Positions 9,352-43,553 of a stretch of 43,553 bases of DNA are shown here, one piece after another. Source of the stretch: Escherichia phage EP-B-K_E2; the sequence record OR992644.1; one strand, 5' to 3'. Numbering within the stretch: the first letter of the stretch is position 1; each line of letters begins with the position of its first letter. The position numbers and the translations under genes were made by a program. The notes under the pieces are model-generated. The model searched no databases. It worked only from the letters and a program-made list of their open reading frames with translations, and was not told the origin of the DNA.

Positions 9352-9382
9352 TTGTTTCTCTCCTCTCGTTTGGTATGGGCTA

Positions 9383-9475: not shown

Positions 9476-9691
9476 ATGCAACCATCTGAACTAGGCATCC
9501 GTGTAGAACAACGCCGCAAAGAACTTGGAATCTCCCAGCGCCGTCTGGCTGTACTAACCGGCGTTTCCCAGGGTGCAATTAACCAGCTGGCCCTTGGGGT
9601 AACTCAGGATGTCCGCCCGGCAACGCTGTTTAAACTGGCGGAAGTGCTGCAAGTAGACGCCAAGTGGCTGGCGTTCGGTGAAGGGGCTTAA
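9476..9691 (+). CDS. XRE-family helix-turn-helix transcriptional regulator (Cro/CI-like)
   Basis: ISQRRLAVLTGVSQGAINQL HTH; SD taaggag 8 nt upstream; divergent from early promoter. Confidence 0.75.
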   Translation: MQPSELGIRVEQRRKELGISQRRLAVLTGVSQGAINQLALGVTQDVRPATLFKLAEVLQVDAKWLAFGEGA

Positions 9692-9708
9692 CGCCCCTTT
9701 CTTTTTAC

Positions 9709-11994: not shown

Positions 11995-12011
11995 CGCGTC
12001 GGGGCTTTCTT

Positions 12012-12245
12012 TTATTCCAGGTCCTCTAAAGTAGCGGTCATTCCGCGAACTTCAGCAACGGCACTATATTTCCCGCCAACATTTTTCACGACACCGGATT
12101 TAACCAGCACCTTCAACGACCCTTCAATAACGGCGGAACTATAGTACTTAAAATAACTACGGCGCAAGTCCATAACGCTGCACGACCCTTTTTTACGTGT
12201 TAATGAGACGACCGCCGTAAATACGCGTGACTGGAACTCAGTCAT
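12012..12245 (-). CDS. hypothetical protein (possible winged-helix)
   Basis: 77-aa ORF coupled to 12242-12445. Confidence 0.4.
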   Translation of the reverse strand: MTEFQSRVFTAVVSLTRKKGSCSVMDLRRSYFKYYSSAVIEGSLKVLVKSGVVKNVGGKYSAVAEVRGMTATLEDLE

Positions 12246-12445
12246 TTCACGTTCTCCTTAATCCACGCTTCCACTTTCTCCCGGTCAAACGTACCTGGCT
12301 GCCGGCGGCCCATAATGCGAATACAACAATCCGGGAACTTCCCGCTCTTTAACCAGTTATTCAGCGTGCGACGAGTAACCCCGATACGCTCAGCTACTTC
12401 ATTCTGCGTCATTCTCAACCCCTCATTATCAGTTAACGGAACCAA
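12242..12445 (-). CDS. small HTH DNA-binding protein (AlpA/excisionase-like fold)
   Basis: MTQNEVAERIGVTRRTLNNWLKSGKFP HTH; first gene of minus-strand arm. Confidence 0.6.
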   Translation of the reverse strand: MVPLTDNEGLRMTQNEVAERIGVTRRTLNNWLKSGKFPDCCIRIMGRRQPGTFDREKVEAWIKENVK

Positions 12446-12843
12446 GTATACATTGCGAATAATGGGAAATCAAACATAATCGCACCTATTGACATTATGA
12501 AAATCTTCGTTTAAGGTGCTTCTATATCTTAGTTACTTTGATTCCTGTTCACCTTGTAAGAATGTTTAACCCGTGCGTCAAGCAAAGGGTTAAACACAGG
12601 CTTACTGAACACGAGAATTATCGTAACTTTCCTTCCTAAGTATCTCCGGTTGCCCTGGGCAAGCTCTATTCTCACCGGCAGCATATCTCTTAAGTATCTG
12701 ATTTTCTTAATGTGCCGTAGATTCGCAACCGTAAAAATGTAACGATTATCGGGCAGGCTTAAGGCCTGCCCTTTAGTTACCAAGTAATAAGAATAAAGGC
12801 ACAACCTTCCCTAAAGAATCACAACGGCAACGTAACTATTCTC

Positions 12844-12872
12844 TTGCACACCCCAACATAATAGGTTACTAT
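12844..12872 (+). promoter_or_regulatory. sigma70-like promoter TTGCAC-N17-TACTAT with AATAG-N4-CTATT dyad
   Basis: Nearly identical 35-bp element to 25844-25872 and 35034-35062 (opposite strand). Confidence 0.6.
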
Positions 12873-12907
12873 TCACTTATCGAAACGAGACAGAGGAGCG
12901 AGGGGTT

Positions 12908-13093
12908 ATGTTTAAGAAGGGTCAGTTGGTTAAAGTAAACGATTACGGTTATTACGGTGCTATCGAACGAATTTCAAATAAGGTTAACGGGATGTACTAC
13001 ATCCGTACACCTAACCAGCGTTTCGGTAAGTGGTGCTTCGGGGACGAGATAAAACTCATCGGCAACAATTTTAAATTCAAAGGGGTGAAGTGA
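12908..13093 (+). CDS. hypothetical protein
   Basis: 61 aa, SD gaggagcgagggg upstream. Confidence 0.45.
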   Translation: MFKKGQLVKVNDYGYYGAIERISNKVNGMYYIRTPNQRFGKWCFGDEIKLIGNNFKFKGVK

Positions 13094-13389
13094 TGGAAGA
13101 ATTACCTCAATGCGAACGCCAGTTCATTAGCGGGTTTATCCCAGTAAATAATTTCAACATTTCTGATTTACTGGAACTAAGAGAAAATGGTGCTTTGTGG
13201 GTATGTAACGCCCGGGATGTAACAAAGGCCCGGGTATGGAATTTTAGCCGGCTGCGTCGCCCTAATAAGTCAGGGGCTGGCGCCGTGACAATGGATTTGT
13301 TACAGCGCAAAGGTAAGCTGTTTATACGAACGGCATCGAATCATGATGCTCGTGCCGACGACTCTGAGGGAGGTTGCCGTGTTAAGTAA
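13090..13389 (+). CDS. hypothetical protein
   Basis: 99 aa, ATGA overlap with previous gene. Confidence 0.45.
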   Translation: MMEELPQCERQFISGFIPVNNFNISDLLELRENGALWVCNARDVTKARVWNFSRLRRPNKSGAGAVTMDLLQRKGKLFIRTASNHDARADDSEGGCRVK

Positions 13390-13422
13390 TATTTTAACCG
13401 TTTATGTGGTGCGGGGGTTGGT

Positions 13423-13566
13423 ATGAGAGAAGCATTTGAACGGTGGGCCATCGTCGAGGGTTTGCCGATTAACAAGGGTTCGAAGAAAGAGTACCTTAAC
13501 GTTAAGACGCGTCTCGCGTGGCGGGCGTGGAAAGCTGGTGTGCAAGCTGTGATGAATACGAGGTGA
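13423..13566 (+). CDS. hypothetical small protein (47 aa, not in ORF track)
   Basis: ATG with gggggttgg SD-like upstream; fills gap between flanking genes. Confidence 0.3.
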   Translation: MREAFERWAIVEGLPINKGSKKEYLNVKTRLAWRAWKAGVQAVMNTR

Positions 13567-13569
13567 GAT

Positions 13570-13749
13570 ATGAGTAAGTGGGTTGAGTGCAGTGAGCAGA
13601 TGCCTAAATATGGGGAGTATGTCATTGTCTATGTCCGCGCCGGGTACTGCTATATAGCAAGATACAACGGTGACTTTGTCTGTGATGAATATGTTAAGTG
13701 TGCCGGGGTGACCCACTGGATGTCGTTACCCGAGCCGCCGGAAGTGTGA
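13570..13749 (+). CDS. DUF551-like small protein (59 aa, not in ORF track)
   Basis: MSKWVECSEQMP...HWMSLPEPP pattern typical of DUF551; SD aggtgag. Confidence 0.4.
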   Translation: MSKWVECSEQMPKYGEYVIVYVRAGYCYIARYNGDFVCDEYVKCAGVTHWMSLPEPPEV

Positions 13750-13782
13750 TGTTCAATAGTTTGGGATTTTACTGAGTGACTT

Positions 13783-13820
13783 ACGCTGCTACACAGCAGC
13801 GTATCATTTTTCTCATTTTT
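13783..13820 (+). terminator. rho-independent terminator
   Basis: Stem acgctgct/agcagcgt, loop acac, followed by T-rich run. Confidence 0.55.
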
Positions 13821-13873
13821 GTTCTATTTCACCAAATGCAACAATCGAAGCGACTATTGCAGGAGATGCAACA

Positions 13874-14047
13874 ATGATTACTAAAGAACAGGCTGAACGA
13901 CTAATCGCGTTAATCGACACAATGATGGATGTAAAAACCGATTTAGCACCGGCAACAGAGGAATCCGCTACCTGGTCGCTTGAAGAAAGAGAAGCAGAAG
14001 CGGAACGGGGTTTACTGGCGTTCATCGATTCAATAACACACCAATAA
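13874..14047 (+). CDS. hypothetical small protein (57 aa, not in ORF track)
   Basis: SD aggaga 7 nt upstream of ATG. Confidence 0.35.
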   Translation: MITKEQAERLIALIDTMMDVKTDLAPATEESATWSLEEREAEAERGLLAFIDSITHQ

Positions 14048-14054
14048 AATTTAC

Positions 14055-14083
14055 TTGCACACTGGGATAGAATAGACTACTAT
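14055..14083 (+). promoter_or_regulatory. sigma70-like promoter TTGCAC-N17-TACTAT with AATAG-N4-CTATT dyad
   Basis: Upstream of 14114 gene. Confidence 0.6.
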
Positions 14084-14113
14084 TCATTTACACAGACGAT
14101 AGGAGAGACAGAG

Positions 14114-14332
14114 ATGTTCCTGGAATGCAAATCCTACGATGGTTACTGGGCGCTGGCTAAAAACGACCTGTACCACATCAAAGAAGACAGCGACGAGAGT
14201 CGATGCTACATAATAGACGACAACGGCACTGAACTTGACGTCTATTACACCGGGTATGGTCGATGGGCGTTATCCGCAGACGATGCCTTTGTGTTTGAAG
14301 AATATAACGGGGAGGAACCGGATGATGAGTAA
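14114..14332 (+). CDS. hypothetical acidic protein
   Basis: 72 aa, SD aggagag upstream. Confidence 0.5.
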   Translation: MFLECKSYDGYWALAKNDLYHIKEDSDESRCYIIDDNGTELDVYYTGYGRWALSADDAFVFEEYNGEEPDDE

Positions 14333-15035
14333 CAAAAACGAAGTATTCGAGTACCTGATTAACCAACTACGGCAGCAGTTACAAGTCGTAGATGTAATGG
14401 GTGAAATCGAACGGTGGAGTATTGACCGTAGTATTGCCGGACGAGGTAACTATACCGACGAGGAAAACGCCATAATTGATGCTTACATCGGCCTGGAGCA
14501 CAACCCGTACAAGCAACAGTGCGAAGACCTGGCGCGTGAGGTGCAGTCACTTAAGAATCAGTTACGTGATGCGTCGGCGCAGATTAAGGAGTTGCAGGAA
14601 GACAACATTGAGAAATCCAGGCACATATCACATCTGGCGGGGCAATCGTCGGCGTATTGCAATGACGCTTTTCGCCTTCAAGCGCAAGTTGATGACCTGG
14701 TAAAACGGCTGGCTAAGGCCACTGGTGACGAGTCTGCGCAGATTAAGGAGTTGACGCTCGCGCTAGATAGTTTAGATAACGAGGTTATGTGTCTTCGTTC
14801 GATCGTTGACCTGGACCCTAAAGGCGCGATTGGGTACATCCGGCGGGCAAATAGTGCAATGACTGACACCATGCGCCGCCAATACCTTAGCAAAGCACTT
14901 GAGGAACTCGGATGTAAGGATTCGCCAGAACAATCCGGTTGCCATAAAGATGACGTGCAGGAATGCAAGCACGATTGGTACTTTTACGATAAAGGTGCTT
15001 CGATGATGTGCAAGAAATGTGGGTTAAAGAAATGA
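14322..15035 (+). CDS. hypothetical coiled-coil protein with C-terminal Cys cluster
   Basis: Start moved to ATG with SD ggagg; internal repeat SAQIKEL x2; C-terminal CxxxxxxC...CxxC. Confidence 0.5.
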   Translation: MMSNKNEVFEYLINQLRQQLQVVDVMGEIERWSIDRSIAGRGNYTDEENAIIDAYIGLEHNPYKQQCEDLAREVQSLKNQLRDASAQIKELQEDNIEKSRHISHLAGQSSAYCNDAFRLQAQVDDLVKRLAKATGDESAQIKELTLALDSLDNEVMCLRSIVDLDPKGAIGYIRRANSAMTDTMRRQYLSKALEELGCKDSPEQSGCHKDDVQECKHDWYFYDKGASMMCKKCGLKK

Positions 15036-19665: not shown

Positions 19666-19759
19666 GTACATCCAGCCCAATCCCCTTATATAATCCCTTT
19701 AGACGCGTAGGGCGCGTCTGGTGCGCTCTGATGGTCAGACGCATATGCAAGGGGATTCT

Positions 19760-20269
19760 ATGAAGCTGAAACTCAAGCAGCCATCGCCAGAGGTGGTGCA
19801 AGCTGCGCATGAAGAAGCTGTTAGCGCAAACCGTCGCCGTAAACGACCGCGCGGTAAACAGAGCCTTTATCAATCATCCCGTAATTCCGCTGCGCTGTGG
19901 GACCCGGACTATTGCGACGAATTGATTCGTTTCTTCGACCGCACGTCGTGGGAGCTTGTGCCTACGTCCAAAGGTGACGAACGCCCGCTGATTCAGGATA
20001 AACCGCCATCACTGGCACGCTTCGCCTTACACATCGGCGTCACTATCCCGATTATTAAGCTGTGGCTGCGCGAGATTCCCGCATTTGCAGAAGCCTGGGA
20101 GACGGCGCAGGCGCTGGAAGAGGCGTATTTCACTGAGACTGGCGCCGCGGGCATCTCCGCGACGTTCGCTGCCGCTAAGCTGGGGCTGAATAAGAAAGAT
20201 GAGCCTGAGAACGATAGCAGCACATCGCAGAACATCACAGTAGTGATAAAGAAAGATACTGGAGAGTAG
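19760..20269 (+). CDS. terminase small subunit
   Basis: Position immediately upstream of large terminase, basic N-terminus, size about 170 aa; SD aagggga. Confidence 0.55.
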   Translation: MKLKLKQPSPEVVQAAHEEAVSANRRRKRPRGKQSLYQSSRNSAALWDPDYCDELIRFFDRTSWELVPTSKGDERPLIQDKPPSLARFALHIGVTIPIIKLWLREIPAFAEAWETAQALEEAYFTETGAAGISATFAAAKLGLNKKDEPENDSSTSQNITVVIKKDTGE

Positions 20270-20327: not shown

Positions 20328-21125
20328 ATGAATTACGAAAAGATATACGAAAGCTTTATATCTCGTTGCAGGTCGCTGCCACACCGGGGCTACGCCGAAA
20401 GACACCACATACTGCCGCGGTCCTTAGGCGGGGATGACTCCCCCGAGAATCTTATTGATTTATCCGCAAGAGAACATTTCTTCGCGCATCTCCTTCTGGC
20501 AAAAATCCACGGCGGCAACATGTGGGCCGCTCTGGCATACATGTCAAGAGGCGGCACTAAGTCAAGCAAACTACATAAATGCACATCCCGTCAGTATGAG
20601 TTTATAAAGCGTAAAGACGCTGAATGGCGTAGCTTGGCGTACCGTGGGGATAAAAACCCGTTCTACGGGAAAACGCATTCACCACAAGCCCTGGCGAAAA
20701 TGCGCAAACCTAGAGTCAATAAAGAGAGACTTTTTGGGCGGGCGGTGCCGGGTGTCGGGGCTATCATATCGTTTGTGCAGACATATAGACCCCGTGCGGT
20801 AGAAATAGATACTACGGTTAGAGACCGAATTGATAGTTGGTTCGCGGTGGACGAAGAACTGCGGCAGCTTAATGTATTCCTCGCCCGTAGCCAAGGGCAG
20901 AAAGCGCTCAATCGAGACCACCACGGCGAAAAGAACCCAAACTACGGCAATGGGAAAGCCATATCCGGCGAAAAGAACCCGATGTTCGGTAAGAAACACA
21001 GCGAAAGCACCAGGGCTAAAATTGCGGAGAAAATGAAACGCACTATGGTGTGCCCGCACTGCGGCAAAGAATCTAACATAGCAAACGCACATAGGTGGCA
21101 CTTTGACAACTGCAAACACAAATGA
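20328..21125 (+). CDS. HNH homing-type endonuclease with NUMOD3-like repeats
   Basis: HHILPRSLGGDDSPENLIDLSAREH HNH motif; repeated KNPxYGK motifs. Confidence 0.7.
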   Translation: MNYEKIYESFISRCRSLPHRGYAERHHILPRSLGGDDSPENLIDLSAREHFFAHLLLAKIHGGNMWAALAYMSRGGTKSSKLHKCTSRQYEFIKRKDAEWRSLAYRGDKNPFYGKTHSPQALAKMRKPRVNKERLFGRAVPGVGAIISFVQTYRPRAVEIDTTVRDRIDSWFAVDEELRQLNVFLARSQGQKALNRDHHGEKNPNYGNGKAISGEKNPMFGKKHSESTRAKIAEKMKRTMVCPHCGKESNIANAHRWHFDNCKHK

Positions 21126-22359
21126 GAAAGAGATGTTGCTTCTCCCGCACCAATACGAACTATTGGCTGATACCACGACAAAGATAATCGGGCTGTGTTC
21201 CGGATTCGGGGGCGGTAAAACGTACAGCGCCGCGCGTAAAGCGGTGCATCTGGCTCTTCTTAACCCAGGTGTAGACGGAATAATAACAGAGCCGACGTTT
21301 CCTCTGTTAGTGCAGGTTATGTTTCCAGAACTTATGGCGGCGCTGGACTTCTTCGGCGTCAAATACAAGTTCAACAAGGTTGAGTCTATTTTTTATTGCG
21401 ACATAAACGGGCAAACAACCCGTATTATTTGCGGAAGTATGGAGAACTATCAGCGACTTATCGGGATAAACGCCGCGTGGTGCGTGTGCGACGAGTTTGA
21501 TACCGCTAAGCAAGAAACCGCTTATGCCGCGTACATGAAGCTGCTAGGCCGCCTTCGTAGGGGTAATGTGCGCCAGTTGGTGATAGTGTCTACCCCTGAG
21601 GGTTTCAGGGCGATGTACCAGATATTCGTAACCGAAGCCGATGCCAGCAAACGGCTAATACGTGCGAAGACAACCGATAACTACCACTTACCAGCGGACT
21701 ACGTAGAGTCAATGCGCAGCCAGTACCCTGAGCAACTCATAAACGCCTATCTGAATGGCGAGTTCGTAAACCTTACATCTGGAGTTGTATATTATGGCTA
21801 TCAACGAGGTAAATGCGAATCCAACGAAACTATTAAACCGGGTGAACCTCTATACATTGGGCAGGATTTTAACGTCGGCAAAATGGCGTCGTGCGTTTAT
21901 GTAAAACGCGGTGCTGATTTTCATGCGGTAGCCGAGTTGGTCGACCTTTTTGATACCCCTGATGTAGTTCGCGTTATCAAGGAGCGGTGGGCCGGGCATC
22001 ACATAATTATGTACCCAGACGCCAGTGGTCGTAATCGTAAAAGCAACTCCGCTTCCACATCTGACATAGCTATCCTGGAGCAAGCAGGATTTGAGATTAG
22101 AGCTAAATCAAAAAATCCACCTGTGAAAGACCGTGTCGCCGCGAGTAACGCCGCGTTTGAAAAAGGTAGAGTCTTTATTAACTCGAAGGCTTGCCCTGCA
22201 ACGGCGCGAGGATTAGAGCAGCAAGCCTATGATAAAAACGGTGAGCCAGAGAAAAACGGCGTAATCGACCATATGGTTGACGCAGCTACATACTTGATCG
22301 CTTACGAGATGCCAGTAGCTAAACCTGTCATTAATATACCGGTTACTTTCGCGCTATAA
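21103..22359 (+). CDS. terminase large subunit
   Basis: Walker A-like GFGGGKTYSA, 418 aa, followed by portal. Confidence 0.8.
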   Translation: MTTANTNEKEMLLLPHQYELLADTTTKIIGLCSGFGGGKTYSAARKAVHLALLNPGVDGIITEPTFPLLVQVMFPELMAALDFFGVKYKFNKVESIFYCDINGQTTRIICGSMENYQRLIGINAAWCVCDEFDTAKQETAYAAYMKLLGRLRRGNVRQLVIVSTPEGFRAMYQIFVTEADASKRLIRAKTTDNYHLPADYVESMRSQYPEQLINAYLNGEFVNLTSGVVYYGYQRGKCESNETIKPGEPLYIGQDFNVGKMASCVYVKRGADFHAVAELVDLFDTPDVVRVIKERWAGHHIIMYPDASGRNRKSNSASTSDIAILEQAGFEIRAKSKNPPVKDRVAASNAAFEKGRVFINSKACPATARGLEQQAYDKNGEPEKNGVIDHMVDAATYLIAYEMPVAKPVINIPVTFAL

Positions 22360-33642: not shown

Positions 33643-34773
33643 TCATCCCAGCATCTCCGGTGAAATAGTTAAACGTGCAACCTCGCCATATTCGGCGCTA
33701 TAAGTAATTACATTTGCACTACGGCCCGACATCCACCCTCCGCGGGAAGCATATGCATCTTTCGCCGCCAGGGTTCGGTGCTGCTCGACAATCATGTTAC
33801 GGCTTTCTACGATTTTCTGATGGTGCAGGTGGCCTACGTGGGCGTAGCTGTACTCGCTTTCGCCAAACGCTTTGCGGAACTTAGCTATCATAATTGGTTC
33901 GACCACCTCAAACCGACATTTATGGCCATGTGTAAAGAACAGAGTCGTTTTGCCGTGTTGTACCATCTTGTACACATCCGGCGACGTATCGACGAACACA
34001 CGAGGCTCATTGTCGTACAGCGTACTGAACATCTCAGCCAGCCAAATCATTCCGCTTTCGTCGTGGTTCCCTTGCACTATAAGCAAACGAACATTTCTAT
34101 GCTTAACAAGTGCCATATCTACAACACGGCGTACCATACGAATCATGTAGCGGACCAGTTTCTGATAGCGCGTGTCAGCGTCAAGGACATGACCACTAGT
34201 TGGCGTAACGGCATCCAGGCTATCGAAGTGCGCGAAGTCGCCTAGCAGGTTAATAACTCCAGTTCCTGCATCCGGTGCTTTCTGAAACGCCGCGTCGAAC
34301 CAGCGGGAGAACAGGTCTTCCGCAATCTTCATGTCCCAGTCGTCGCCGCTCTCGTCGGCCCAGGCCAGCATACCGAGATGAAAATCAGATACCGTGTAAA
34401 GATTGAGTAGCTTGTCGTCGCGTTTGGCGCGTGCTGCTTTAACAGGGGCGACTGGCGTAATCTCTGATTTCATTCCTTCGATTACGGCTTTCATCAACTC
34501 GACCTGACGTTCGGCATCGGTGTCTGTCTTAACCCATTGCAACTTAGTGTTGCCGAACTCGTCCACCAGTGACGACGTTCCTTTAATCTTGTAGCCGTCT
34601 GGTACTAGATGGCTAACGTCACGCCCGTGGCCTACGCCTTTTTTCGCCAGCTTCGCTTTACGGATACGAATAACGCGGTCTGAGATGCCGTATTTACGGG
34701 CGATATCTATATTCTTCATCCCGGCGTTCAATTCTTCCTGTAACTGTTCGTCGGTTATTTTCTTCTGGGCCAT
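33643..34773 (-). CDS. HTH domain fused to calcineurin-like metallophosphoesterase
   Basis: N-terminal HTH IDIARKYGISDRVIRIRKAKL; motifs SDFHLG, GDFAHFD, VQGNHDE, THGH, VGHLHH; start set to ATG with SD gaggaag. Confidence 0.7.
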   Translation of the reverse strand: MAQKKITDEQLQEELNAGMKNIDIARKYGISDRVIRIRKAKLAKKGVGHGRDVSHLVPDGYKIKGTSSLVDEFGNTKLQWVKTDTDAERQVELMKAVIEGMKSEITPVAPVKAARAKRDDKLLNLYTVSDFHLGMLAWADESGDDWDMKIAEDLFSRWFDAAFQKAPDAGTGVINLLGDFAHFDSLDAVTPTSGHVLDADTRYQKLVRYMIRMVRRVVDMALVKHRNVRLLIVQGNHDESGMIWLAEMFSTLYDNEPRVFVDTSPDVYKMVQHGKTTLFFTHGHKCRFEVVEPIMIAKFRKAFGESEYSYAHVGHLHHQKIVESRNMIVEQHRTLAAKDAYASRGGWMSGRSANVITYSAEYGEVARLTISPEMLG

Positions 34774-34811
34774 GCTTACTTCCTCGTGTTTAGGATTTGT
34801 CTTATAGTAGC

Positions 34812-35003
34812 CTACTTCTCTTTCACGTTCGAGTTGCAAGCCCAGATTAAAATAAATACCCACGGCAGCAGAACCCAGCCAAGAAACAGATTAGCCATGA
34901 ATATCGCCAACTTCGCTTTATGGTTACGGAAGTACGCAACCAGGAAAGGCGCGAAATAAGCGAGCAGTGCAAACAGAATTAAGGAAACTGGTAAACTGGA
35001 CAT
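34812..35003 (-). CDS. small membrane protein (alternative start 35018)
   Basis: Two hydrophobic helices; SD aagggg 6 nt before second ATG; directly downstream of promoter 35034-35062. Confidence 0.5.
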   Translation of the reverse strand: MSSLPVSLILFALLAYFAPFLVAYFRNHKAKLAIFMANLFLGWVLLPWVFILIWACNSNVKEK

Positions 35004-35033
35004 TTTAAACCCCTTCATTGTTGGTGTAAGTGA

Positions 35034-35062
35034 ATAGTACCCTATTATATTGGGGTACGCAA
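35034..35062 (-). promoter_or_regulatory. sigma70-like promoter TTGCGT-N17-TACTAT with dyad (minus strand)
   Basis: Near-identical to 12844-12872 and 25844-25872 elements. Confidence 0.6.
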
Positions 35063-35169
35063 GTAATGTGATAGAATAATTTTGCGCCTAGTGTCGCACA
35101 CGAAAAGCGGGTGGTTCCCGTCTGGCGCATTTCCCTTAACCTGTAACCTCTTAACCAAAGGATTAAAGA

Positions 35170-35586
35170 ATGAAACTTTCTGATTTTTATTTCGAAGAGA
35201 AAGCACTGGTAGGCAAGAAGATGCCGATTCTCCTGCCAAATGGTGAAGACTCAGGGGAATGGCTTAATGTTGTAAATCCGGATGCGGATGCCGCCGTTAA
35301 AGCGGGGCGTGCTTTCATTATCGCGTACCGTCGCGGACTGGCGCGTTTCGAAGAACTGGAAAAAACCGCTAAAGCCTCCGGCGACTATACAGAATACAAC
35401 CTGGCGGTTAACGAACTGGCGGAAGACCTCAACCGGCAACTTGCGGCAGAAGTCGTAAACGGCTGGAGCTTTGACGAGCCTTTCTCTAAGGAAGCGTTTA
35501 ACAAGTTGCTCGACCAGTTCAAGGCATTAGGCACACAGGTAGCCGCGTTCCATAACGCTGAGCGCAAAGCATTACAGGAAAAGTAG
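35170..35586 (+). CDS. tail assembly chaperone (G-like)
   Basis: 138 aa immediately upstream of tape measure with overlapping downstream frame. Confidence 0.6.
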   Translation: MKLSDFYFEEKALVGKKMPILLPNGEDSGEWLNVVNPDADAAVKAGRAFIIAYRRGLARFEELEKTAKASGDYTEYNLAVNELAEDLNRQLAAEVVNGWSFDEPFSKEAFNKLLDQFKALGTQVAAFHNAERKALQEK

Positions 35587-35618
35587 ACGCGCTGTACAGG
35601 TTCGCCACCTACGAGTTT

Positions 35619-35951
35619 GTGGATAAGCATAAAATCAGAGAGTTTGATTCTATAGCTGACGGACACGAGCAGGCGCTTATCGCGATGGGTGTAATCGATA
35701 AGAAAAAACGTGCAGCGCGACGGGGTGGGCCGGAATGTCCGCCCCTTTTTATATCCACCTTTGAGACGTATTGCGACATTAAGTTTACGCGACACGTGCG
35801 CGAGGACGCTGTAGTATTGTTTGCAAGAGAATCCGTTACGTGGCAAGACCTGAAAGCCTATCTCGACGTTACGAAAAAACAGCTTAGCCTGTTCGAGATA
35901 GACATTATCATGGGCTTAGAAGCAATCTTTGAAGGTAGAAACCATGGCTGA
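35619..35951 (+). CDS. tail assembly chaperone extension (T-like), probably expressed by -1 frameshift; frame open from 35562
   Basis: No SD before GTG; frame-0 ORF overlaps end of 35170 gene around GGAAAAG at 35577-35583. Confidence 0.45.
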   Translation: MDKHKIREFDSIADGHEQALIAMGVIDKKKRAARRGGPECPPLFISTFETYCDIKFTRHVREDAVVLFARESVTWQDLKAYLDVTKKQLSLFEIDIIMGLEAIFEGRNHG

Positions 35952-38217
35952 TATCGCTAGCTTGATAGTACGAGTATCCGCAACCGGCGTCGATAAAGTC
36001 ACATCACAACTGAACGGGCTTACTAAAGCCGCAGGCGCTGCGGCTGCCGCCGTTGTCAGCCTGGAAACCGCTAAGCAGGTGTTCAGTGCGCTGGTGGACT
36101 CCCAGCGAAACTTCGATAAGCTGAACTCCGGCCTAATCACAATGACCGGGAGTGCTGAGAACGCGGCTAAGGCTTTCAGCGTCCTGCAACAGTTCGCAAA
36201 AGAAACCCCGTATGGCCTCAATCAGGCGGTCGAGGGCTTCACTAAACTTGTAGCTCTTGGTCTTAACCCCAGCAAAGAGGCGTTAATCTCCTACGGCAAC
36301 ACCGCCGCTGCGATGGGCAAAGACCTTAATCAGATGATTGAGGCTGTGGCGGACGCCAGTACATTTGAGTTTGAGCGACTGAAAGAGTTTGGTATCAAGT
36401 CGTCACAGCAGGCGGATACAGTGTCGTTCACGTTCCGCGGTGTTACCACCACGGTTAAGAAGAACTCCGAAGAGATTCAGAAATACCTTCTGAATATTGG
36501 TAACACTGATTTCGCCGGAGCGATGGAAACGCGTTCGAAAACCCTTGACGGGCAGTTATCCAGCCTCGCGGACTCCTTTGACGGCCTTGTACTTGCGGTG
36601 GCGCAATCAGGTTTCGGCGACGCCGTAGGTGAGCAAGCTGCGAGGGCGGAAGATGCTATCACGGCGCTTACTGATGCCATCGCGTCTAATGAGATAGCAG
36701 CCACGCTCCAGGATTGGGTAACACTGTTCAATGAATCGTTCAAGTTTATCTCTGATGCCTTGAACGACCTGGCATACGATACCGAGGACAAATCCGTGGA
36801 TATGTCCGACTCGCTGGGGGGTATACCGGACGCTATCCGTGAGTGGTTGCCCGACATTCAGCAGACATTCCACGAGGTTATTGCGTGGTTCCAGCGCATT
36901 GACGATTATGCCGTAGCGTTAGGCCAGACCCTTGCCGACGTGTTTGACCCGAGCAAAACGGCGGCGCTTACATTTAAAAACCTTACCGCAGAGGCTGATG
37001 CCGCATACGATGCCAGCATAAAACGGGCGGAGGCCGAGTCGCAGGCCATTACCAACAGGTCTAAGCAGCGTAAGAAAGAAATTGAGGAACAACGCAAGCA
37101 GTATGATGAGCGCAAGAAGCAAGAGATTGACTTAGCCAGCCTTGTTAATAAAAAGGGCGGAACTGGTGGAACGGGGGAAACCGACGATAAAGCAGCAAAA
37201 GCCGCCGCCAAGAAAGCAGAGCAATTGCGCAAACAGGCGCAAGATTACCTCGACACTTTGGCCCGTCAGAACAACGACGAGTTAAAAGCTATTGACGCGC
37301 AGGAACAGCAGAAACTGGCTAAAGCGAAAGAGTTCTACAGCCAGGGCGCACTGTCACTGAAAGAATACGAACAAGCTAAAACAGCTATCGTCCTCGAAGC
37401 CGGACAAAAACGGCAAGATGAACTGGATAAACGCCAGAAAGAAGCCCTGGAAAAGCAGCAGAAAGGCGACGACTTCATGGCTCAGATTATGGGCCAGAAC
37501 GCTACTGAGCTTGAGCTTCTCGACATCCAGGAACAGCAGAAACTGGCGGTAGCGGATAAGTACCGCGAGCAGGGTTTGATTAGCGAGAAGCAGTATCAGG
37601 CCGCGCTTAACGCCATCAACGAGCAATACGCCACCAAGCGTGCTGATGCAACGGCAACGGCCTTTGGTAACATGGCCTCAAACATCGGGTCTGCGTTGGG
37701 TGAGGCTTCTGGCGCGTACAAGGCATTCGCTATCGTACAGGCCACCATAGCCACGTACACCGCGGCTATCGAGGCGTACAAGTCCACGGCGGCTATCCCC
37801 ATAGTCGGCCCGTTCCTGGCCCCTGTAGCCGCTGCCGCTGCCGTTGGTGCAGGTATGGCTCAGGTTTCCGCTATCAGGTCAGCACGTGAACAAGGTGGTC
37901 AGTTATCCGCGGGGCAGGCTTCTACTATAGCAGAACGCGGAAAACCAGAAGTTATCATGCCTGCCGGGGCATCGCGTGTGCGCACCGCACAGCAGATGAA
38001 AGAAATTATGGGCCAAAACGGGTCTTCTTCCGGCCCGTCCAATGTTACTATCGTAAACAACACGAGTTCTCAAATCGGCAACGTATCCACCGAGCAAGAT
38101 GATGAAGGCCGTTTGCGTATCATCATCGAGGAGCAAGTGGCAGCCTCTTTGCAGAACAGCAACAGTAAGATTAGCAAGGCCCGCAAGGCCACAAGAAATG
38201 CGCCGGGGTTTAAATAA
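35944..38217 (+). CDS. tail tape measure protein
   Basis: 758 aa, Ala/Gln-rich coiled coil, internal repeats, position. Confidence 0.8.
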   Translation: MADIASLIVRVSATGVDKVTSQLNGLTKAAGAAAAAVVSLETAKQVFSALVDSQRNFDKLNSGLITMTGSAENAAKAFSVLQQFAKETPYGLNQAVEGFTKLVALGLNPSKEALISYGNTAAAMGKDLNQMIEAVADASTFEFERLKEFGIKSSQQADTVSFTFRGVTTTVKKNSEEIQKYLLNIGNTDFAGAMETRSKTLDGQLSSLADSFDGLVLAVAQSGFGDAVGEQAARAEDAITALTDAIASNEIAATLQDWVTLFNESFKFISDALNDLAYDTEDKSVDMSDSLGGIPDAIREWLPDIQQTFHEVIAWFQRIDDYAVALGQTLADVFDPSKTAALTFKNLTAEADAAYDASIKRAEAESQAITNRSKQRKKEIEEQRKQYDERKKQEIDLASLVNKKGGTGGTGETDDKAAKAAAKKAEQLRKQAQDYLDTLARQNNDELKAIDAQEQQKLAKAKEFYSQGALSLKEYEQAKTAIVLEAGQKRQDELDKRQKEALEKQQKGDDFMAQIMGQNATELELLDIQEQQKLAVADKYREQGLISEKQYQAALNAINEQYATKRADATATAFGNMASNIGSALGEASGAYKAFAIVQATIATYTAAIEAYKSTAAIPIVGPFLAPVAAAAAVGAGMAQVSAIRSAREQGGQLSAGQASTIAERGKPEVIMPAGASRVRTAQQMKEIMGQNGSSSGPSNVTIVNNTSSQIGNVSTEQDDEGRLRIIIEEQVAASLQNSNSKISKARKATRNAPGFK
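37300..37547 (+). repeat. in-frame direct repeat inside tape measure gene
   Basis: Exact 20-mer caggaacagcagaaactggc at 37300 and 37528 (228 bp apart); protein repeat IDAQEQQKLA / LDIQEQQKLA. Confidence 0.7.
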
Positions 38218-38717
38218 TGAGCGACTTATATTTCCCACGTAGCCTTAAGCCGGTGGTATCGAAAGGCTACTCAATGACCAGACGCAACAACGTCTGGAGT
38301 GTCGATTTAGCAGGTGGTGGTGTGCGCCAGGGCCGTGACACGTATTACGACGTGTTCCCGATAAGCGTAACCCTGATTACATCGGCACTAGGGCGGCAGG
38401 CGTTTCTGTCGTTCCTTGAGAAAGTCGATGGCGGTGCGTCAAGTTTCTGGATGGCGCACGACTTCGGCATGGGCATCGAGGATTACCAGGTAACAATCAC
38501 GTCCACCATCGCGGAGTCAACCGAAGACGGCATTAACTGGACAATTACCTTCACGGCAACCGCCGAGAAATCACCGTTCCAGGATGAAGATAACCAGTGC
38601 CTTGTTAACAATCTACCAGATTTGTATGGTTGCTATGGCGACGGGCTGGGATGTTTCCTTAAAGCCTACGGAACCGCGCAATCAACGTTTCCACGAATTT
38701 GGGACCCGATGCAATGA
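38217..38717 (+). CDS. minor tail protein (distal tail, lambda M-like position)
   Basis: 166 aa immediately after tape measure. Confidence 0.45.
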   Translation: MSDLYFPRSLKPVVSKGYSMTRRNNVWSVDLAGGGVRQGRDTYYDVFPISVTLITSALGRQAFLSFLEKVDGGASSFWMAHDFGMGIEDYQVTITSTIAESTEDGINWTITFTATAEKSPFQDEDNQCLVNNLPDLYGCYGDGLGCFLKAYGTAQSTFPRIWDPMQ

Positions 38718-39229
38718 GTCAGGAATCAGTAGAAGCAGCCTATCGCCGTAAGCTGGCCTCAAATCCCGACGGCGAGATGGACTACATCACGTTGCAAATC
38801 AGCCACCCGTTACTATCGAAGACGTACTATCTTGTGCGCGGGCTACAGGAACTTACGGCAACACTGGAGACGGGTGAAACTATAACCTTCGAACCCACCC
38901 CGATGGAAGCGTCGGGGGCCTCTAACAACAGCGATATGGACCAGACGACGACGTTTACTTTACCGGATATTCTCAACCAACTGGACGATGAGATGGATAA
39001 AATCCCGATGAGTAACACCGAGTTGCCGAAATTCGTCTTCCGCCGTTACGTCAGCACCGACCTGTCTTATCCCGCTGATGGCCCGGTCGTGTACGAGTTG
39101 CAGGCCATCAACCAGGAAAAGGGCGAGTTCTCCGCGGATGTCGGTACACCTATGCTGAACCAACGAAGCACTGGTATACTGATGACACCTAAAGAGATAC
39201 CGTTATTACGCGGGCTGTTGACCACATGA
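38714..39229 (+). CDS. minor tail protein (lambda L-like position)
   Basis: ORF trimmed to ATG 38714; position. Confidence 0.45.
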   Translation: MSQESVEAAYRRKLASNPDGEMDYITLQISHPLLSKTYYLVRGLQELTATLETGETITFEPTPMEASGASNNSDMDQTTTFTLPDILNQLDDEMDKIPMSNTELPKFVFRRYVSTDLSYPADGPVVYELQAINQEKGEFSADVGTPMLNQRSTGILMTPKEIPLLRGLLTT

Positions 39230-39591
39230 ATATTAACGACTACACGGGCATACCGTACGACTTTCGTAAACGTAATTGCTGGCATCACGTGCGCATTGTC
39301 CGCGCGGATGCCGGGTTAGAGACGCCAGCGTTCGACGTCACAAGCCCAACGGCAATTAATGAAGCGTTCGACGAAGGCCACCGCAACACGAAGGGGCTTA
39401 CGAAAATTGATAAGCCTGAAAACTTCTGTGCGGTGCTTATGGGGTATCGCCGTGGGGGTCGCATCGTGTGGCACGCAGGAGTTTACTTCAATGGTATGGT
39501 GAGTCATTGCGAGCTTGCGTCCCGTCAGGTACGGCTTGACAGGCTGGCGGACCTCAGAGACACGTACACGGAGATTGAATTTTGGCGATAA
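39226..39591 (+). CDS. NlpC/P60-family tail protein (lambda K-like position)
   Basis: Candidate catalytic Cys in RNCWHHV and His in VWHAGVY. Confidence 0.5.
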   Translation: MNINDYTGIPYDFRKRNCWHHVRIVRADAGLETPAFDVTSPTAINEAFDEGHRNTKGLTKIDKPENFCAVLMGYRRGGRIVWHAGVYFNGMVSHCELASRQVRLDRLADLRDTYTEIEFWR

Positions 39592-42137
39592 TCCTGCACT
39601 ACACGCGAAACGCTGAAGGCGCTTTCGACCGTACAAAACACGTCGGGATGCCGATGGAGTTTGTCGTTAACCGTATCCCGGACGGCGTGCCGGTGCGCGT
39701 CTATCTCGGTGAGATTGGTGATGATACCGACGTAACTGACGACTTCGACGCGCTTAAAGATGAAGACGCTGTGTACCACATTATTGAGGGCGCTGGTGGT
39801 GGGATAGGTAACGCTATTGGGAAGGTATTCGGCTTTATCCTTAAGCCAATCGCTAAGTTGTTCGGGCTTAACACCGCGGCTAACGCTAATTATTCAGCAA
39901 CCAACAATCAGACAACGTCACCGAACAACAGCCTTACCGACCGCTCCAACAAGCCGCGACCTTACGAGCGCTCTTATGACATATGCGGTACTGTGCAGAC
40001 AATCCCTAATGACCTGATGCAGACGTATAAGGCGTTCAACTCAACTGGTGCTTTGCTGGAGTATTCATACTACGACGCCGGGCGCGGGCATCTGCATATC
40101 GAAGCGGATGGTGTCACAGAAGGTGATACCCAGATTAGCGGTATTACCGGCTCCTCTGTTGCTGTGTACGCCCCATACACTTCACCAAACAACACAACTA
40201 CACCGCAGTTACAGATCGGCGACGTTATAAACCAAAAATTATACATTACTTTTATGAACGATGATGTTGACGGTGTTGTGCTTAAGGCACCTAACGATTT
40301 AGGCGTAGTTTTTGACGGTGAAACGGCATTCGTATCCGTCTCGGGCAACACCGGCACCCTAACCGAAACTTCGTCGGCGGTAGATTTCAGTGAAGACATA
40401 TCCGTAGGTGACATCGTAGTTTGCAGCCCTATGTGGACGACAAACGACGTGTCTCTTACTGGTCATTACCGGGTTTTAGACGTATCAGAAAACACGGTTA
40501 CTCTAAATATTACAGGGCGCGAATCCGACTGGAACGCCGCCGTAGGGTATGCCATTCGGGGGAACGACGCAGAGAACTCTATGCGCCCGCAGGACACATA
40601 CAACAAGTCGCTAACCGACTGGTACTACATCACCAGAGGAAGTGTTGACCGTGTCCTGGCTAACTTCGCCGGCGCTAATGGTATGTACCGCTACAACGGC
40701 AGCTATAGCACTGCAAGCGCCACGATAGAGCTGCAATTTCAAGCGGTAAACGAACAAAGACAGCCGATTGGCGATATTTACACGACACGGGTTGTAGTAA
40801 CTGGTCGCAACACCGATTACACTGGAACAAGCGCCTACGGCTACCTTCCAATGGCAAGCAGGGTCCGCGTAAGAGCTAGACGGGTTAGCAACTCTGATAA
40901 AGATTTCGACGGTACGGTAAGTGACGAGATAACGTTCATCAACCTGTACGGGCAGTCTCTGGATACAACCCCCCACTACGGTAACAGAACTACGGTACAT
41001 TGCGCCCGTAAACAGACCCCGCGAGCCGCCAGTATCGACAACCCGGAACTGCGCATGATTGCAACCGAGATGTGTTACAAATACCTCGGTAATGGTGTAT
41101 TCGATACGGTAATGACTCCGAACACGCAGGCGGTGCAGTCACTAATCAGACTGGCTCGGGACCCTGCGGTTGGCAATCTGGAACTGACAACGGCAAACAT
41201 GGACAAGTTACTTGCTGTGCAGGAAGAGATTGAGTCCTATTTCGGAAGTGAATTAGCGGGTCAGTTCTGTTACACGTTCGACGACTACGACACCACGATG
41301 CAGGACATCGTTCAGACTATAGCTGAAGCCGTGTTCTGTACCGCGTACCGTAAAGGCGCGGATATTATGCTGAGATTCGACCGTCCTGTTGCTGGGCCTG
41401 AAATGGTGTTCACCCACCGCAGTAAGACGACCGGTACAGAGAAATGGTCCCGCACGTTCAACGATTCGACAACCTACGATAGTCTGTCGTTCTCGTACAT
41501 CGACCCGGATACTAACGTACAGGAAACGATTTATATCCCGGAAGAACTCGGAGCAAACACCGAGGAGTACGAATCTAAGGGCGTGCGCAACTATCAGCAA
41601 GCGTACTGGCTGGCGTGGCGTCGCTATCAGCGCAACGCGTTAAGTAAAGTTGTCGTAGAGTTCGAAGCCACCGAAGAAGGCGCTCTCGCTACTCCCGGCG
41701 GCGTAATCAGCGTGGTTAAAGGCTCGCGTATCGCGCCGCAGGATGGCTATGTTGTTGCCGTTAATGGGCTTACACTTACACTATCCCAGCCTGTTACGTT
41801 TACTCCTGGCGATGACCACTCCATCATTCTTAAGAAGCGCGATGGCTCGGTGCAGAGTATCTCTGTTATCAAAGGAAGCCACGACCGAGAAGTGATTATG
41901 CTCTCCGCACCTGAGGAGGCAATTTACACAGGGAATAGCGCACTAAAAACTGAGTTTTCATTCGGCAACGAAGCAAGGCATAATGCCCAGAAGATAGTTG
42001 TTTCTTCAATCGACCCGGGCGACGACCGCACGGTCAAGATTACGGGTTACAACTATGACGACGGATTCTACAAATACGACGGCGTCGCACCTTTAGGTCG
42101 CGGTTTCTCCGACGGATTCAGCAATGGTTTTAATTAA
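39582..42137 (+). CDS. tail tip / central fiber protein (lambda J-like host specificity protein)
   Basis: 851 aa, last large tail gene before tailspike. Confidence 0.6.
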   Translation: MAIILHYTRNAEGAFDRTKHVGMPMEFVVNRIPDGVPVRVYLGEIGDDTDVTDDFDALKDEDAVYHIIEGAGGGIGNAIGKVFGFILKPIAKLFGLNTAANANYSATNNQTTSPNNSLTDRSNKPRPYERSYDICGTVQTIPNDLMQTYKAFNSTGALLEYSYYDAGRGHLHIEADGVTEGDTQISGITGSSVAVYAPYTSPNNTTTPQLQIGDVINQKLYITFMNDDVDGVVLKAPNDLGVVFDGETAFVSVSGNTGTLTETSSAVDFSEDISVGDIVVCSPMWTTNDVSLTGHYRVLDVSENTVTLNITGRESDWNAAVGYAIRGNDAENSMRPQDTYNKSLTDWYYITRGSVDRVLANFAGANGMYRYNGSYSTASATIELQFQAVNEQRQPIGDIYTTRVVVTGRNTDYTGTSAYGYLPMASRVRVRARRVSNSDKDFDGTVSDEITFINLYGQSLDTTPHYGNRTTVHCARKQTPRAASIDNPELRMIATEMCYKYLGNGVFDTVMTPNTQAVQSLIRLARDPAVGNLELTTANMDKLLAVQEEIESYFGSELAGQFCYTFDDYDTTMQDIVQTIAEAVFCTAYRKGADIMLRFDRPVAGPEMVFTHRSKTTGTEKWSRTFNDSTTYDSLSFSYIDPDTNVQETIYIPEELGANTEEYESKGVRNYQQAYWLAWRRYQRNALSKVVVEFEATEEGALATPGGVISVVKGSRIAPQDGYVVAVNGLTLTLSQPVTFTPGDDHSIILKKRDGSVQSISVIKGSHDREVIMLSAPEEAIYTGNSALKTEFSFGNEARHNAQKIVVSSIDPGDDRTVKITGYNYDDGFYKYDGVAPLGRGFSDGFSNGFN

Positions 42138-42149
42138 AGAGGACTCTAT

Positions 42150-43553
42150 ATGTCAAGCGGATGCGGTGACGTTTTAAGCCTGGCGGATTTACAGATTGCG
42201 AAGAAGCACCAGCTTTTCGAGGCTGAGGTTATCACAGGCAAATCAGGCGGCGTATCAACTGGTACTGATATTGATCACGCAACCAACGCTGTTACTGGGC
42301 AAGTGCAGAAAACAATGCCAGCCATTTTGAGAGATGTAGGATTTGAACCGGCGGCGTTCGATTTTTACACTGGAGGTACTCTTAGCGTGACTGACCGTAA
42401 TAAGGCGGTGTTATGGCCTTTAGGTTCTGGCGGAGATGGTGCGTGGTATAATTGGGAGGGCGCTTTGCCGAAAGTGGTCCCCGCTGCGTCTACTCCTGCT
42501 ACCACCGGGGGCATCGCCGCTGGTGCGTGGAAGCTAACTATGGACCCTACATTACGCAGTGACCTGACTAATGTGGAGTCAGACCTGGCCGAACTTAATT
42601 CCGATTTTGAAGCGTATAAGACATCACTGGCATCTGCAAACAGTGGCCTCCTGGTTGATGATAGCAACATAAAAGTCCAGGGCGACTTTAACAACACCGT
42701 AATCCGCACTCAGCACTCAAAAAATAATGACACACCAACCGTAAAAGATTTTGGTGCAATAGGCGACGGCGTAACCGACGATACTGCGGCACTCCATGCC
42801 GCGTTTGCCTCCGGTGTGTACTATTTCCCTCACGGCTTATATAAGACTACTACCGCATCGACGATATCACAGTTAGCCAAATCCGACGGCCCGGGTGTGA
42901 TAACGTTTAACGGGGTTAACTTCCCTGCGTCGCGCACGGTTGATAATGCTGTGTATCTTGTGTCGGTTCCTGAAATGTTCCCTACTATCCAGGCGGCCCT
43001 TGACTTCTTCAGTTTTAAACGTGCAGCTAATAACGCGTGGTTTCGCATTCAGGTCGATAATGGGGTGTACCAGGTTAAAAACATTCGTTCCAGGGTAAAA
43101 GACTGGCACGCCTTGCAAATTATAGGTAATGAGTCAAACCCTCTGGACTGTCAATTACAAGTAGACACTACTGACAACGGGTGTGGTTTTATTTTTGAAG
43201 ATGGGTTTGGGGCCGCGGTTATAAACGGCTTCCATATTTTCGGTGTAGGAGGATGGTCATCTAAGGGTGTATGGGCTAATCAAAGTTACGGAGCCGCTAT
43301 TCGTGTTATAGGGTCAGGTTCTAAGGTATCAACAGGAACCGCCATTCGTACGGAAAGAATATATTACGGATTCCAGGCGTTGTACGGCGGCACTATCAAC
43401 TGTCAGGGGACTACCGCCGTTCAGGCAGGGGACTGCGGATACCATGCATATGCTGCGACGATTAATGCTTACGGATGCACCGCACAGGACTGTGCGCACA
43501 CAAACGGTGAAAATCTTGGTTTCGGTTTCTGTGCCGAAGTTGGGGGGTTTATA
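42150..43553 (+). CDS. tailspike with pectate-lyase-like beta-helix (N-terminal part; continues at 2-364)
   Basis: SD aaagagga; KDFGAIGDGVTDDTAALHAAFASG pectate-lyase-type motif; no stop before window end; total 571 codons if circular. Confidence 0.7.
   Translation, partial: MSSGCGDVLSLADLQIAKKHQLFEAEVITGKSGGVSTGTDIDHATNAVTGQVQKTMPAILRDVGFEPAAFDFYTGGTLSVTDRNKAVLWPLGSGGDGAWYNWEGALPKVVPAASTPATTGGIAAGAWKLTMDPTLRSDLTNVESDLAELNSDFEAYKTSLASANSGLLVDDSNIKVQGDFNNTVIRTQHSKNNDTPTVKDFGAIGDGVTDDTAALHAAFASGVYYFPHGLYKTTTASTISQLAKSDGPGVITFNGVNFPASRTVDNAVYLVSVPEMFPTIQAALDFFSFKRAANNAWFRIQVDNGVYQVKNIRSRVKDWHALQIIGNESNPLDCQLQVDTTDNGCGFIFEDGFGAAVINGFHIFGVGGWSSKGVWANQSYGAAIRVIGSGSKVSTGTAIRTERIYYGFQALYGGTINCQGTTAVQAGDCGYHAYAATINAYGCTAQDCAHTNGENLGFGFCAEVGGFI
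43499..43553. repeat. 55-bp terminal redundancy identical to 1-55
   Basis: Exact identity; lies inside tailspike coding frame, consistent with circular-contig overlap. Confidence 0.9.

What the first reader, a model, noticed from the sequence alone, without database searches (positions are those of the whole stretch)
43499..43553. Terminal 55-bp redundancy shows the contig is a circularised genome with tailspike spanning the junction
Bases 1-55 equal 43499-43553 exactly, and the tailspike reading frame is continuous across the junction (42150 to end, then 2-364). The window is therefore a full genome of about 43,498 bp opened arbitrarily inside a gene. The true physical ends are not defined by this window.
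Basis: seen in the sequence. Interest (0 to 1): 0.35.

Follow-up and report, generated by a model that had tools for sequence, protein, structure and literature searches.

The report
Assembler overlap on circular phage contig
The identical 55 bases at both ends of this sequence are a leftover of how the assembler writes out a circle, so the window is one complete 43,498-bp Kagunavirus phage genome cut open inside its tailspike gene; this is ordinary.

Summary
Bases 1-55 equal 43499-43553 exactly. This is the only prefix/suffix overlap, and the 55-mer occurs nowhere else in the window. Removing one copy gives a 43,498-bp unit and restores a 570-aa tailspike ORF (42150-43553 joined to 56-364). 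Reading the two ends literally one after the other hits a stop after 3 codons.

Three independent assemblies carry this gene uninterrupted and internal to the contig. Two of them read through the junction with a single copy of the 55-mer: GenBank OR992643.1 (655/655) and a Logan contig of 43,892 bp (654/655). The third holds a 568-aa, 61%-identical homologue in the same gene order.

The whole circle is collinear with the complete Kagunavirus ZCEC5, which is opened elsewhere. [quoted passage not shown]

Relatives on both sides of this terminase package by the headful (pac) mechanism. Virion DNA is therefore most likely linear, terminally redundant and circularly permuted, with no fixed end at position 1.

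The repeat is an artefact of representation, not biology, so interest is low. Side notes: a homing endonuclease lies between the terminase genes, the large-terminase allele is atypical for the genus, and the tailspike receptor-binding domain is rare.

The parts
1..55 (+). Left copy of the 55-bp end overlap. It is redundant with 43499-43553 and encodes tailspike residues 451-468 from base 2.
43499..43553 (+). Right copy of the 55-bp end overlap.
42150..43553 (+). Tailspike gene, 5' part (aa 1-468): N-terminal anchor (Tail_spike_N) and most of the pectate-lyase-like domain.
56..364 (+). Tailspike gene, 3' part (aa 469-570 plus stop at 362-364).
   Evidence: Homologues P0001 (570 aa, 99%) and P0002 (568 aa, 61%) are collinear to the C terminus.
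368..399 (+). Intrinsic-terminator-like hairpin (9-bp stem, 6 GC pairs) and T-rich tail just after the tailspike stop. This is the real boundary between the rightward structural genes and the leftward replication genes.
   Evidence: strand switch seen.
39582..42137 (+). J-like central tail protein (851 aa), immediately upstream of the tailspike as in relatives.
593..2017 (-). SNF2-type DNA helicase (474 aa). It is the larger of the convergent genes downstream of the tailspike, as in relatives.
19721..20269 (+). Small terminase subunit (182 aa). Many related records are conventionally opened here, and a pac site is most plausibly in or near this gene (inference).
21103..22359 (+). Large terminase subunit (418 aa; Terminase_6N/6C). 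It decides the packaging mode.

Best explanation
The 55-bp terminal redundancy is not part of the phage genome. It is the k-length overlap that a de Bruijn-graph assembler (SPAdes or metaSPAdes, largest k = 55) leaves at both ends when it writes a circular path as a linear contig, starting at an arbitrary node. Here that node fell inside the tailspike gene.

Trimming one copy gives the complete 43,498-bp genome of a Kagunavirus (Guernseyvirinae), the same species as Escherichia phage EP-M-A.

The reads closed into a circle because the virion DNA population has no unique ends. The phage most likely packages concatemers by the headful (pac) mechanism, producing linear, terminally redundant, circularly permuted molecules.

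Shown here: exact identity of the ends, a single copy in independent assemblies, restoration of the ORF, and whole-circle collinearity. Inferred: which assembler was used, and the headful packaging mode.
For: Exact 55/55 identity of the ends, with no other copy in the window.

Literal concatenation gives HKR-stop and would truncate the tailspike at 471 aa. A single-copy join gives 570 aa.

OR992643.1 (EP-M-A, 24,264 bp) equals window 33643..43498 followed by 1..14408 without gaps, with 121 substitutions. It is therefore a different sequence that crosses the junction. Junction +-300 bp is 655/655 in OR992643.1 and 654/655 in Logan ERR2367670_86, whereas the two-copy version needs gaps. A single HSP of 9.1 kb at 92% crosses the junction in the Logan contig.

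The tailspike is a single internal gene of 570 or 568 aa, flanked by the J-like tail protein and the reverse-strand SNF2 helicase, in two Logan contigs. Bas74 and ZCEC5 have the same order with longer tailspikes.

Thirteen homologues align without a gap through residues 451-468. This stretch holds invariant L456, G457, G459 and E463. The AlphaFold model has pLDDT 91-98 across the junction residues.

The whole circle is collinear with ZCEC5: window 593-16406 matches ZCEC5 26610-42869, and window 16413-42405 matches ZCEC5 31-24305. Each record is continuous where the other is opened.

Packaging in relatives:
- Shashou: PhageTerm predicts pac, and the contig ends were closed by PCR (PMC6776780).
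- fBC-Eco01: no obvious termini found (PMC9825357).
- K1G/K1H: the TerL clade groups with headful packagers (PMC5582158).
- Jerseyvirus K47: PhageTerm headful call, circular-like restriction pattern and a broad PFGE band (PMC10783031).
- Dhillonvirus Opt-212: headful (PMC9022532).
Against: No reads, assembly graph or assembler log are available, so the assembler and its k value are inferred from the number 55 alone.

The window's TerL is an atypical allele. It is only about 50% identical (aa) to the usual Kagunavirus/Jerseyvirus TerL and 58% to Dhillonvirus TerL, so transferring 'headful' from relatives is an inference. No solved-structure relative was found by sequence.

An assembler would also collapse a genuine short terminal repeat into a circle. 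Read-through in other assemblies therefore proves a single-copy circular map, not the absence of fixed ends.
Confidence: 0.95

Rival explanations
1. The 55 bp is a genuine short direct terminal repeat of a linear virion genome with fixed ends at window position 1 (T7-style packaging). The tailspike gene would then be split in the virion and become whole only after circularisation or concatemer formation.
For: Identical ends are formally what a DTR looks like. Assemblers collapse DTRs, so read-through in other contigs does not exclude it.
Against: The ends lie inside a coding sequence, in the most conserved motif of the tailspike C-terminal domain.

The repeat length equals a standard assembler k.

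TerL belongs to the family whose members, on both phylogenetic sides, are headful packagers. Kagunavirus fBC-Eco01 showed no termini.

The short DTRs reported for the podoviruses in PMC5582158 are 165-289 bp.
Confidence: 0.02
2. The genome really contains two tandem copies of the 55-mer, so the literal end-to-start concatenation is the true sequence.
For: None beyond the presence of the two copies in the window.
Against: 55 is not a multiple of 3, and the literal join reads HKR-stop, cutting off the last 99 residues. Two near-identical genomes have one copy. Homologues of 570 and 568 aa match the single-copy product end to end.
Confidence: 0.005
3. False circularisation: the 55-mer is a repeat present twice in a larger genome, and the contig is an incomplete or chimeric segment bounded by it.
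For: Assemblers can break contigs at repeats.
Against: The unit is collinear with the complete ZCEC5 genome all round the circle, with similar size (43,498 against 43,372 bp). It has a full set of packaging, head, tail, lysis and replication genes. The join recreates a gene and a gene order seen in independent contigs.
Confidence: 0.01

Closest known systems
k-mer overlap at the ends of circular contigs from SPAdes-type de Bruijn assemblers (the 'DTR' signal used to call complete circular viral contigs)
   Same: The prefix and suffix are exactly identical, the length is 55 (a SPAdes k value, from my own knowledge), the break point is arbitrary and falls inside a gene, and other assemblies of the same genome have one copy.
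   Different: Nothing observed differs. The assembler itself could not be verified.
Headful (pac) packaging phages with circularly permuted, terminally redundant DNA, as reported for Guernseyvirinae (Jerseyvirus K47, Kagunavirus Shashou) and Dhillonvirus
   Same: Circular assembly, TerL of the same family (Terminase_6N/6C), and the same gene order and genome size as these phages.
   Different: The TerL allele here is only 50-58% identical (aa) to those with packaging data. A homing endonuclease gene sits between terS and terL. Packaging was not measured for this phage.
Escherichia phage EP-M-A (OR992643.1, partial genome) and Escherichia phage ZCEC5 (Kagunavirus)
   Same: EP-M-A shares 24,143 of 24,264 positions without gaps, including the whole tailspike. 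ZCEC5 gives 79% aligned fraction at 89% identity with full synteny.
   Different: EP-M-A is deposited as only 24 kb; the window supplies the whole circle. There is a mosaic patch in the tape-measure gene. ZCEC5 has a different tailspike receptor-binding domain and the standard TerL with no homing endonuclease.
Short exact direct terminal repeats of T7-like phages
   Same: Identical sequence at both ends of a linear record.
   Different: In the podoviruses of PMC5582158 these repeats are 165-289 bp. In T7-like phages they are non-coding and go with a different terminase clade (my own knowledge). Here the repeat is 55 bp inside a conserved coding motif, and the terminase belongs to a headful clade.

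Membership tests
Assembler k-mer overlap of a circular contig | Prefix and suffix are exactly identical and bounded by the contig ends | tested here: met
   55/55 identical; the only overlap length found.
Assembler k-mer overlap of a circular contig | Overlap length equals a k used by the assembler | tested here: inconclusive
   55 is a SPAdes/metaSPAdes k value (own knowledge), and PMC12509680 describes ~55-bp repeats left by SPAdes on circles. The assembler and parameters used for this window are unknown.
Assembler k-mer overlap of a circular contig | The true sequence has a single copy; trimming one copy gives a continuous, sensible sequence | tested here: met
   Single copy in OR992643.1 and in Logan ERR2367670_86. 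The ORF is restored to 570 aa. Thirteen homologues are gap-free across the join.
Assembler k-mer overlap of a circular contig | The contig is a closed path in the assembly graph, with reads spanning the junction | not testable with these tools
   No reads or graph are available.
Headful (pac) packaging, circularly permuted genome | Large terminase related to terminases of phages with demonstrated headful packaging | tested here: met
   TerL aligns over at least 94% of its length with Jerseyvirus and Kagunavirus TerL (about 50% aa identity) and Dhillonvirus TerL (58%). Members of these groups were shown or predicted to be headful packagers.
Headful (pac) packaging, circularly permuted genome | No fixed virion ends; a pac fragment or permuted read starts | not testable with these tools
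   Needs raw reads or virion DNA.
Genuine short direct terminal repeat (fixed ends) | The repeat lies at non-coding genome ends, and the genes are whole in the linear molecule | tested here: not met
   The repeat encodes tailspike aa 451-468, and the gene is split by the opening.
Genuine short direct terminal repeat (fixed ends) | Terminase of a DTR-type clade | tested here: not met
   The nearest TerL relatives are headful packagers. In PMC5582158 the K1G/K1H siphovirus clade is separate from the short-DTR clade.
Genus Kagunavirus (Guernseyvirinae) | About 70% or more nucleotide similarity over the genome to genus members (ICTV genus criterion, own knowledge) and shared gene order | tested here: met
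   ZCEC5: aligned fraction 0.788 x 89.25% identity = 70.3%, with full synteny, which is right at the threshold. There is 99.5% identity to EP-M-A, which GenBank files under Kagunavirus.
Phage tailspike (beta-helix depolymerase type) | N-terminal tail-attachment domain plus a right-handed beta-helix carbohydrate-binding or carbohydrate-cleaving domain, encoded after the J-like tail protein | tested here: met
   Pfam Tail_spike_N (E 8e-13) and Pect-lyase_RHGA_epim. PHROG tail spike families. Residues 200-570 are strand-rich with pLDDT above 90. The best fold matches are CBA120 TSP3, AlgE4 and other beta-helix enzymes and tailspikes, though TM-scores are low at 0.15-0.30. The locus is as described for Kagunavirus in PMC11990801. 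Enzymatic activity was not tested.

The most novel reading that the evidence does not exclude
The 55 bp could be a true, unusually short direct terminal repeat. The virion DNA would then begin and end inside the tailspike gene, and the gene could be expressed only from circularised or concatemeric DNA after infection. The atypical TerL allele and the adjacent homing endonuclease leave a sliver of room for a packaging mode that differs from the rest of the genus.
Probability: 0.01. Interest if true: 0.5.

Novelty: not a real feature. Interest (0 to 1): 0.04.

Why it matters
The main value is in handling the sequence correctly. One copy of the 55-mer should be trimmed before annotation, the tailspike should be annotated as one 570-aa gene across the origin, and the record is better re-opened at the small terminase gene (window 19721).

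The 'direct terminal repeat' must not be read as a packaging signal or as physical genome ends.

The window also supplies the complete genome for a phage species that is so far deposited only as a 24-kb partial record (EP-M-A). No new biology follows from the repeat itself.

Tried and rejected
Exact searches for the 55-mer, and for a 105-bp junction-spanning string, found nothing in viral contigs. The 55-mer alone also found nothing in metagenome contigs, so those collections gave no extra junction evidence.

I reached the same goal through the search for homologous proteins and look-ups of P0001 and P0002.

A phmmer search of TerL against PDB sequences gave no hit at E <= 0.01, so the packaging class could not be assigned from a solved structure.

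Foldseek of the tailspike model gave only low TM-scores (0.15-0.30). These were partly degraded by the low-confidence N-terminal 190 residues. It names the fold class but no close structural relative.

I considered and rejected a real tandem duplication (frameshift and stop), false circularisation at an internal repeat, and a longer imperfect terminal repeat (the overlap is bounded by the contig ends, so it cannot extend).

Full report
**Observation.** The first 55 and last 55 bases of the window are identical (CACAAACGGTGAAAATCTTGGTTTCGGTTTCTGTGCCGAAGTTGGGGGGTTTATA). 55 is the only length at which prefix equals suffix. Even with 3 mismatches allowed, on both strands, the 55-mer occurs only at 1-55 and 43499-43553, and none appeared in 100 shuffles.

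**The gene across the junction.** An ORF starts at ATG 42150 and runs to the last base of the window on an exact codon boundary (468 codons; one search shows ...DCAHTNGENLGFGFCAEVGGFI).
- If the window's first base is read directly after its last, the frame gives HKR-stop. A literal two-copy sequence would therefore truncate the protein.
- If one copy of the 55-mer is dropped, the frame continues at base 56 (NCERSHALG...) to a stop at 362-364, giving a 570-aa protein.
- The protein carries Pfam Tail_spike_N and a pectate-lyase-like domain. It matches PHROG tail spike families from its first residue.
- An AlphaFold model built on 13 homologues is strand-rich with pLDDT above 90 from residue 200 to 570, including 91-98 over the junction residues.
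- Its best, though weak, fold matches are phage tailspikes and beta-helix carbohydrate enzymes.
- A strong terminator-like hairpin follows the stop at 368-389. This is where the rightward structural genes meet the leftward replication genes. The natural boundary is therefore about 310 bp beyond the contig's opening, not at it.

**Independent sequences across the junction.**
- GenBank OR992643.1 (Escherichia phage EP-M-A, partial genome, 24,264 bp, Kagunavirus) equals, on its reverse strand, window 33643..43498 followed directly by 1..14408. There are no gaps and 121 substitutions, so it is a distinct sequence that crosses the junction with one copy of the 55-mer.
- A protein search found a 570-aa, 99%-identical protein (P0001) and a 568-aa, 61%-identical protein (P0002), plus further full-length relatives.
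- Both proteins are single genes internal to Logan contigs (43,892 bp and 21,929 bp). Each is flanked upstream by the J-like tail protein and downstream by a reverse-strand 474-aa SNF2 helicase. This is exactly the gene order obtained by joining the window's ends (39582-42137 J-like; 593-2017 helicase).
- The 655 bp centred on the single-copy junction match OR992643.1 at 655/655 and the Logan contig at 654/655 without gaps. The two-copy version aligns only with gaps, at about 90%. One 9.1-kb HSP at 92% crosses the junction.
- In an alignment of 13 homologues, the residues encoded by the 55-mer (451-468) are gap-free and contain four of the 22 invariant columns: L456, G457, G459 and E463.

**Completeness and identity.** The window is a Kagunavirus (Guernseyvirinae). 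Hundreds of Escherichia and Salmonella phages of this subfamily match it.
- Against the complete ZCEC5 genome (43,372 bp), the 43,498-bp unit aligns as window 593-16406 to ZCEC5 26610-42869 and window 16413-42405 to ZCEC5 31-24305. The aligned fraction is 0.79 and mean identity is 89%.
- Each record is thus continuous where the other is opened. The only large unaligned arc is the tailspike receptor-binding domain, which is the usual variable cassette.
- The same holds for Bas73, whose last base aligns to window 19720, and for Bas74, which starts at the small terminase gene.
- The window is therefore one complete genome, written as a circular permutation.

**Why 55, and what the ends are.** 55 is a SPAdes/metaSPAdes k value (my own knowledge). 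[quoted passage not shown] Another paper used a 55-bp end overlap as proof that a contig was circular (PMC8851603). The assembler used for this window is not known, so this step is inference.

Reads close into a circle when virion DNA lacks unique ends. The evidence from relatives is as follows:
- Kagunavirus Shashou: PhageTerm predicts pac packaging, and the contig ends were closed by PCR (PMC6776780). Its forward closing primer matches window 42141-42163 exactly.
- fBC-Eco01: no obvious termini (PMC9825357).
- K1G/K1H-type terminases cluster with headful packagers, apart from the short-DTR clade (PMC5582158).
- Jerseyvirus K47: PhageTerm headful call, a circular-like restriction pattern and a broad PFGE band (PMC10783031).
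- Dhillonvirus Opt-212: headful (PMC9022532).

The window's large terminase (21103-22359; Terminase_6N/6C) is 50% identical to the usual Guernseyvirinae TerL and 58% to Dhillonvirus TerL over at least 94% of its length. It therefore sits inside this headful family, although its own packaging has not been measured.

**Rivals.**
- A genuine 55-bp DTR with fixed ends at position 1 cannot be excluded from sequence alone, because assemblers collapse DTRs. It would, however, place the virion ends inside the most conserved coding motif of the tailspike, be shorter than the 165-289 bp DTRs reported in PMC5582158, and contradict the terminase family. I give it about 2%.
- A real tandem duplication is refuted by the frameshift and stop and by the single-copy relatives.
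- False circularisation at an internal repeat is refuted by the whole-circle collinearity and matching size.

**Verdict.** The repeat is an artefact of how a circular assembly is written, not a feature of the phage. Its practical consequences are to trim 55 bp, annotate the tailspike across the origin, and re-open the record at terS. Interest is low.

**Side observations.**
1. An HNH/NUMOD3 homing endonuclease gene (20289-21125) lies between terS and terL, as in Jerseyvirus LSPA1. It is absent at the same site in Salmonella phage PK1, whose TerL is 99.8% identical. The standard Kagunavirus arrangement has terS and terL overlapping. The terS gene is the standard Kagunavirus allele, but terL is a cross-genus allele.
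2. About 100 of the 121 differences from EP-M-A are clustered in the tape-measure gene at 36.9-38.05 kb, which indicates a recombination patch.
3. The tailspike receptor-binding domain is rare. Among 50,697 phage records, only EP-M-A and a 26%-identical Pseudomonas phage protein match it.

Noticed in passing
window 19721-22359: A free-standing HNH/NUMOD3 homing endonuclease gene (20289-21125) lies between the small (19721-20269) and large (21103-22359) terminase genes. terS is the standard Kagunavirus allele (94-95% nt). TerL is only about 50% identical (aa) to the usual Kagunavirus/Jerseyvirus TerL and 58% to Dhillonvirus TerL, but at least 99% to a handful of Jerseyviruses. LSPA1 has the same endonuclease at this site, and PK1 lacks it. 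This looks like a mobile endonuclease, with possible co-conversion of the neighbouring terL allele across genera.
   Followed up: partly
window 36880-38050: About 100 of the 121 substitutions between the window and EP-M-A (OR992643.1) cluster in roughly 1.2 kb of the tape-measure gene, mostly at third-codon spacing. The remaining 23 kb is nearly identical. This is a recombination (mosaic) patch between otherwise near-clonal phages.
   Followed up: no
window 42700-43553 and 56-361 (tailspike aa ~190-570): The receptor-binding domain is rare. Among 50,697 phage records, only EP-M-A (100%) and a Pseudomonas phage tail fibre (26%) match it. In the large protein collection the nearest full-length relatives are 61% and 40% identical. 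A 47%-identical 'pectate lyase superfamily protein' is found in Komagataeibacter europaeus. The C-terminal part is built of repeats of the form G-F/Y-Y-A-x-N/S-G-G. The target glycan is unknown.
   Followed up: partly
window 368-399: A strong terminator-like hairpin (GAAGGCCCC-AAAC-GGGGCCTTT plus a T-rich tail) lies at the point where the tailspike (+) and the helicase operon (-) converge. It may act as a bidirectional terminator.
   Followed up: no
window 27174-28829 (- strand): A 551-aa ATG-initiated ORF runs antisense to the 257-aa ORF at 26962-27735 and the 349-aa ORF at 27738-28787; the latter corresponds to the major capsid gene of ZCEC5 (for the correspondence). It is unusually long for a shadow ORF at 51% GC. 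ZCEC5 has no annotated counterpart. It is probably non-coding, but this was not examined.
   Followed up: no
window 33643-34863 (- strand): A reverse-strand 406-aa ORF is embedded in the rightward tail-gene block. In the related Logan contig the equivalent gene has a faint metallophosphatase hit and is followed by a small Imm_superinfect-family gene. ZCEC5 has the same reverse-strand island, gp30-33. It is a moron-like insert conserved in the genus.
   Followed up: no
window 42141-42163: The forward primer used to close the SPAdes contig of Kagunavirus Shashou by PCR (PMC6776780) matches this window exactly, at the tailspike start codon region. It could be reused for a junction PCR here.
   Followed up: yes
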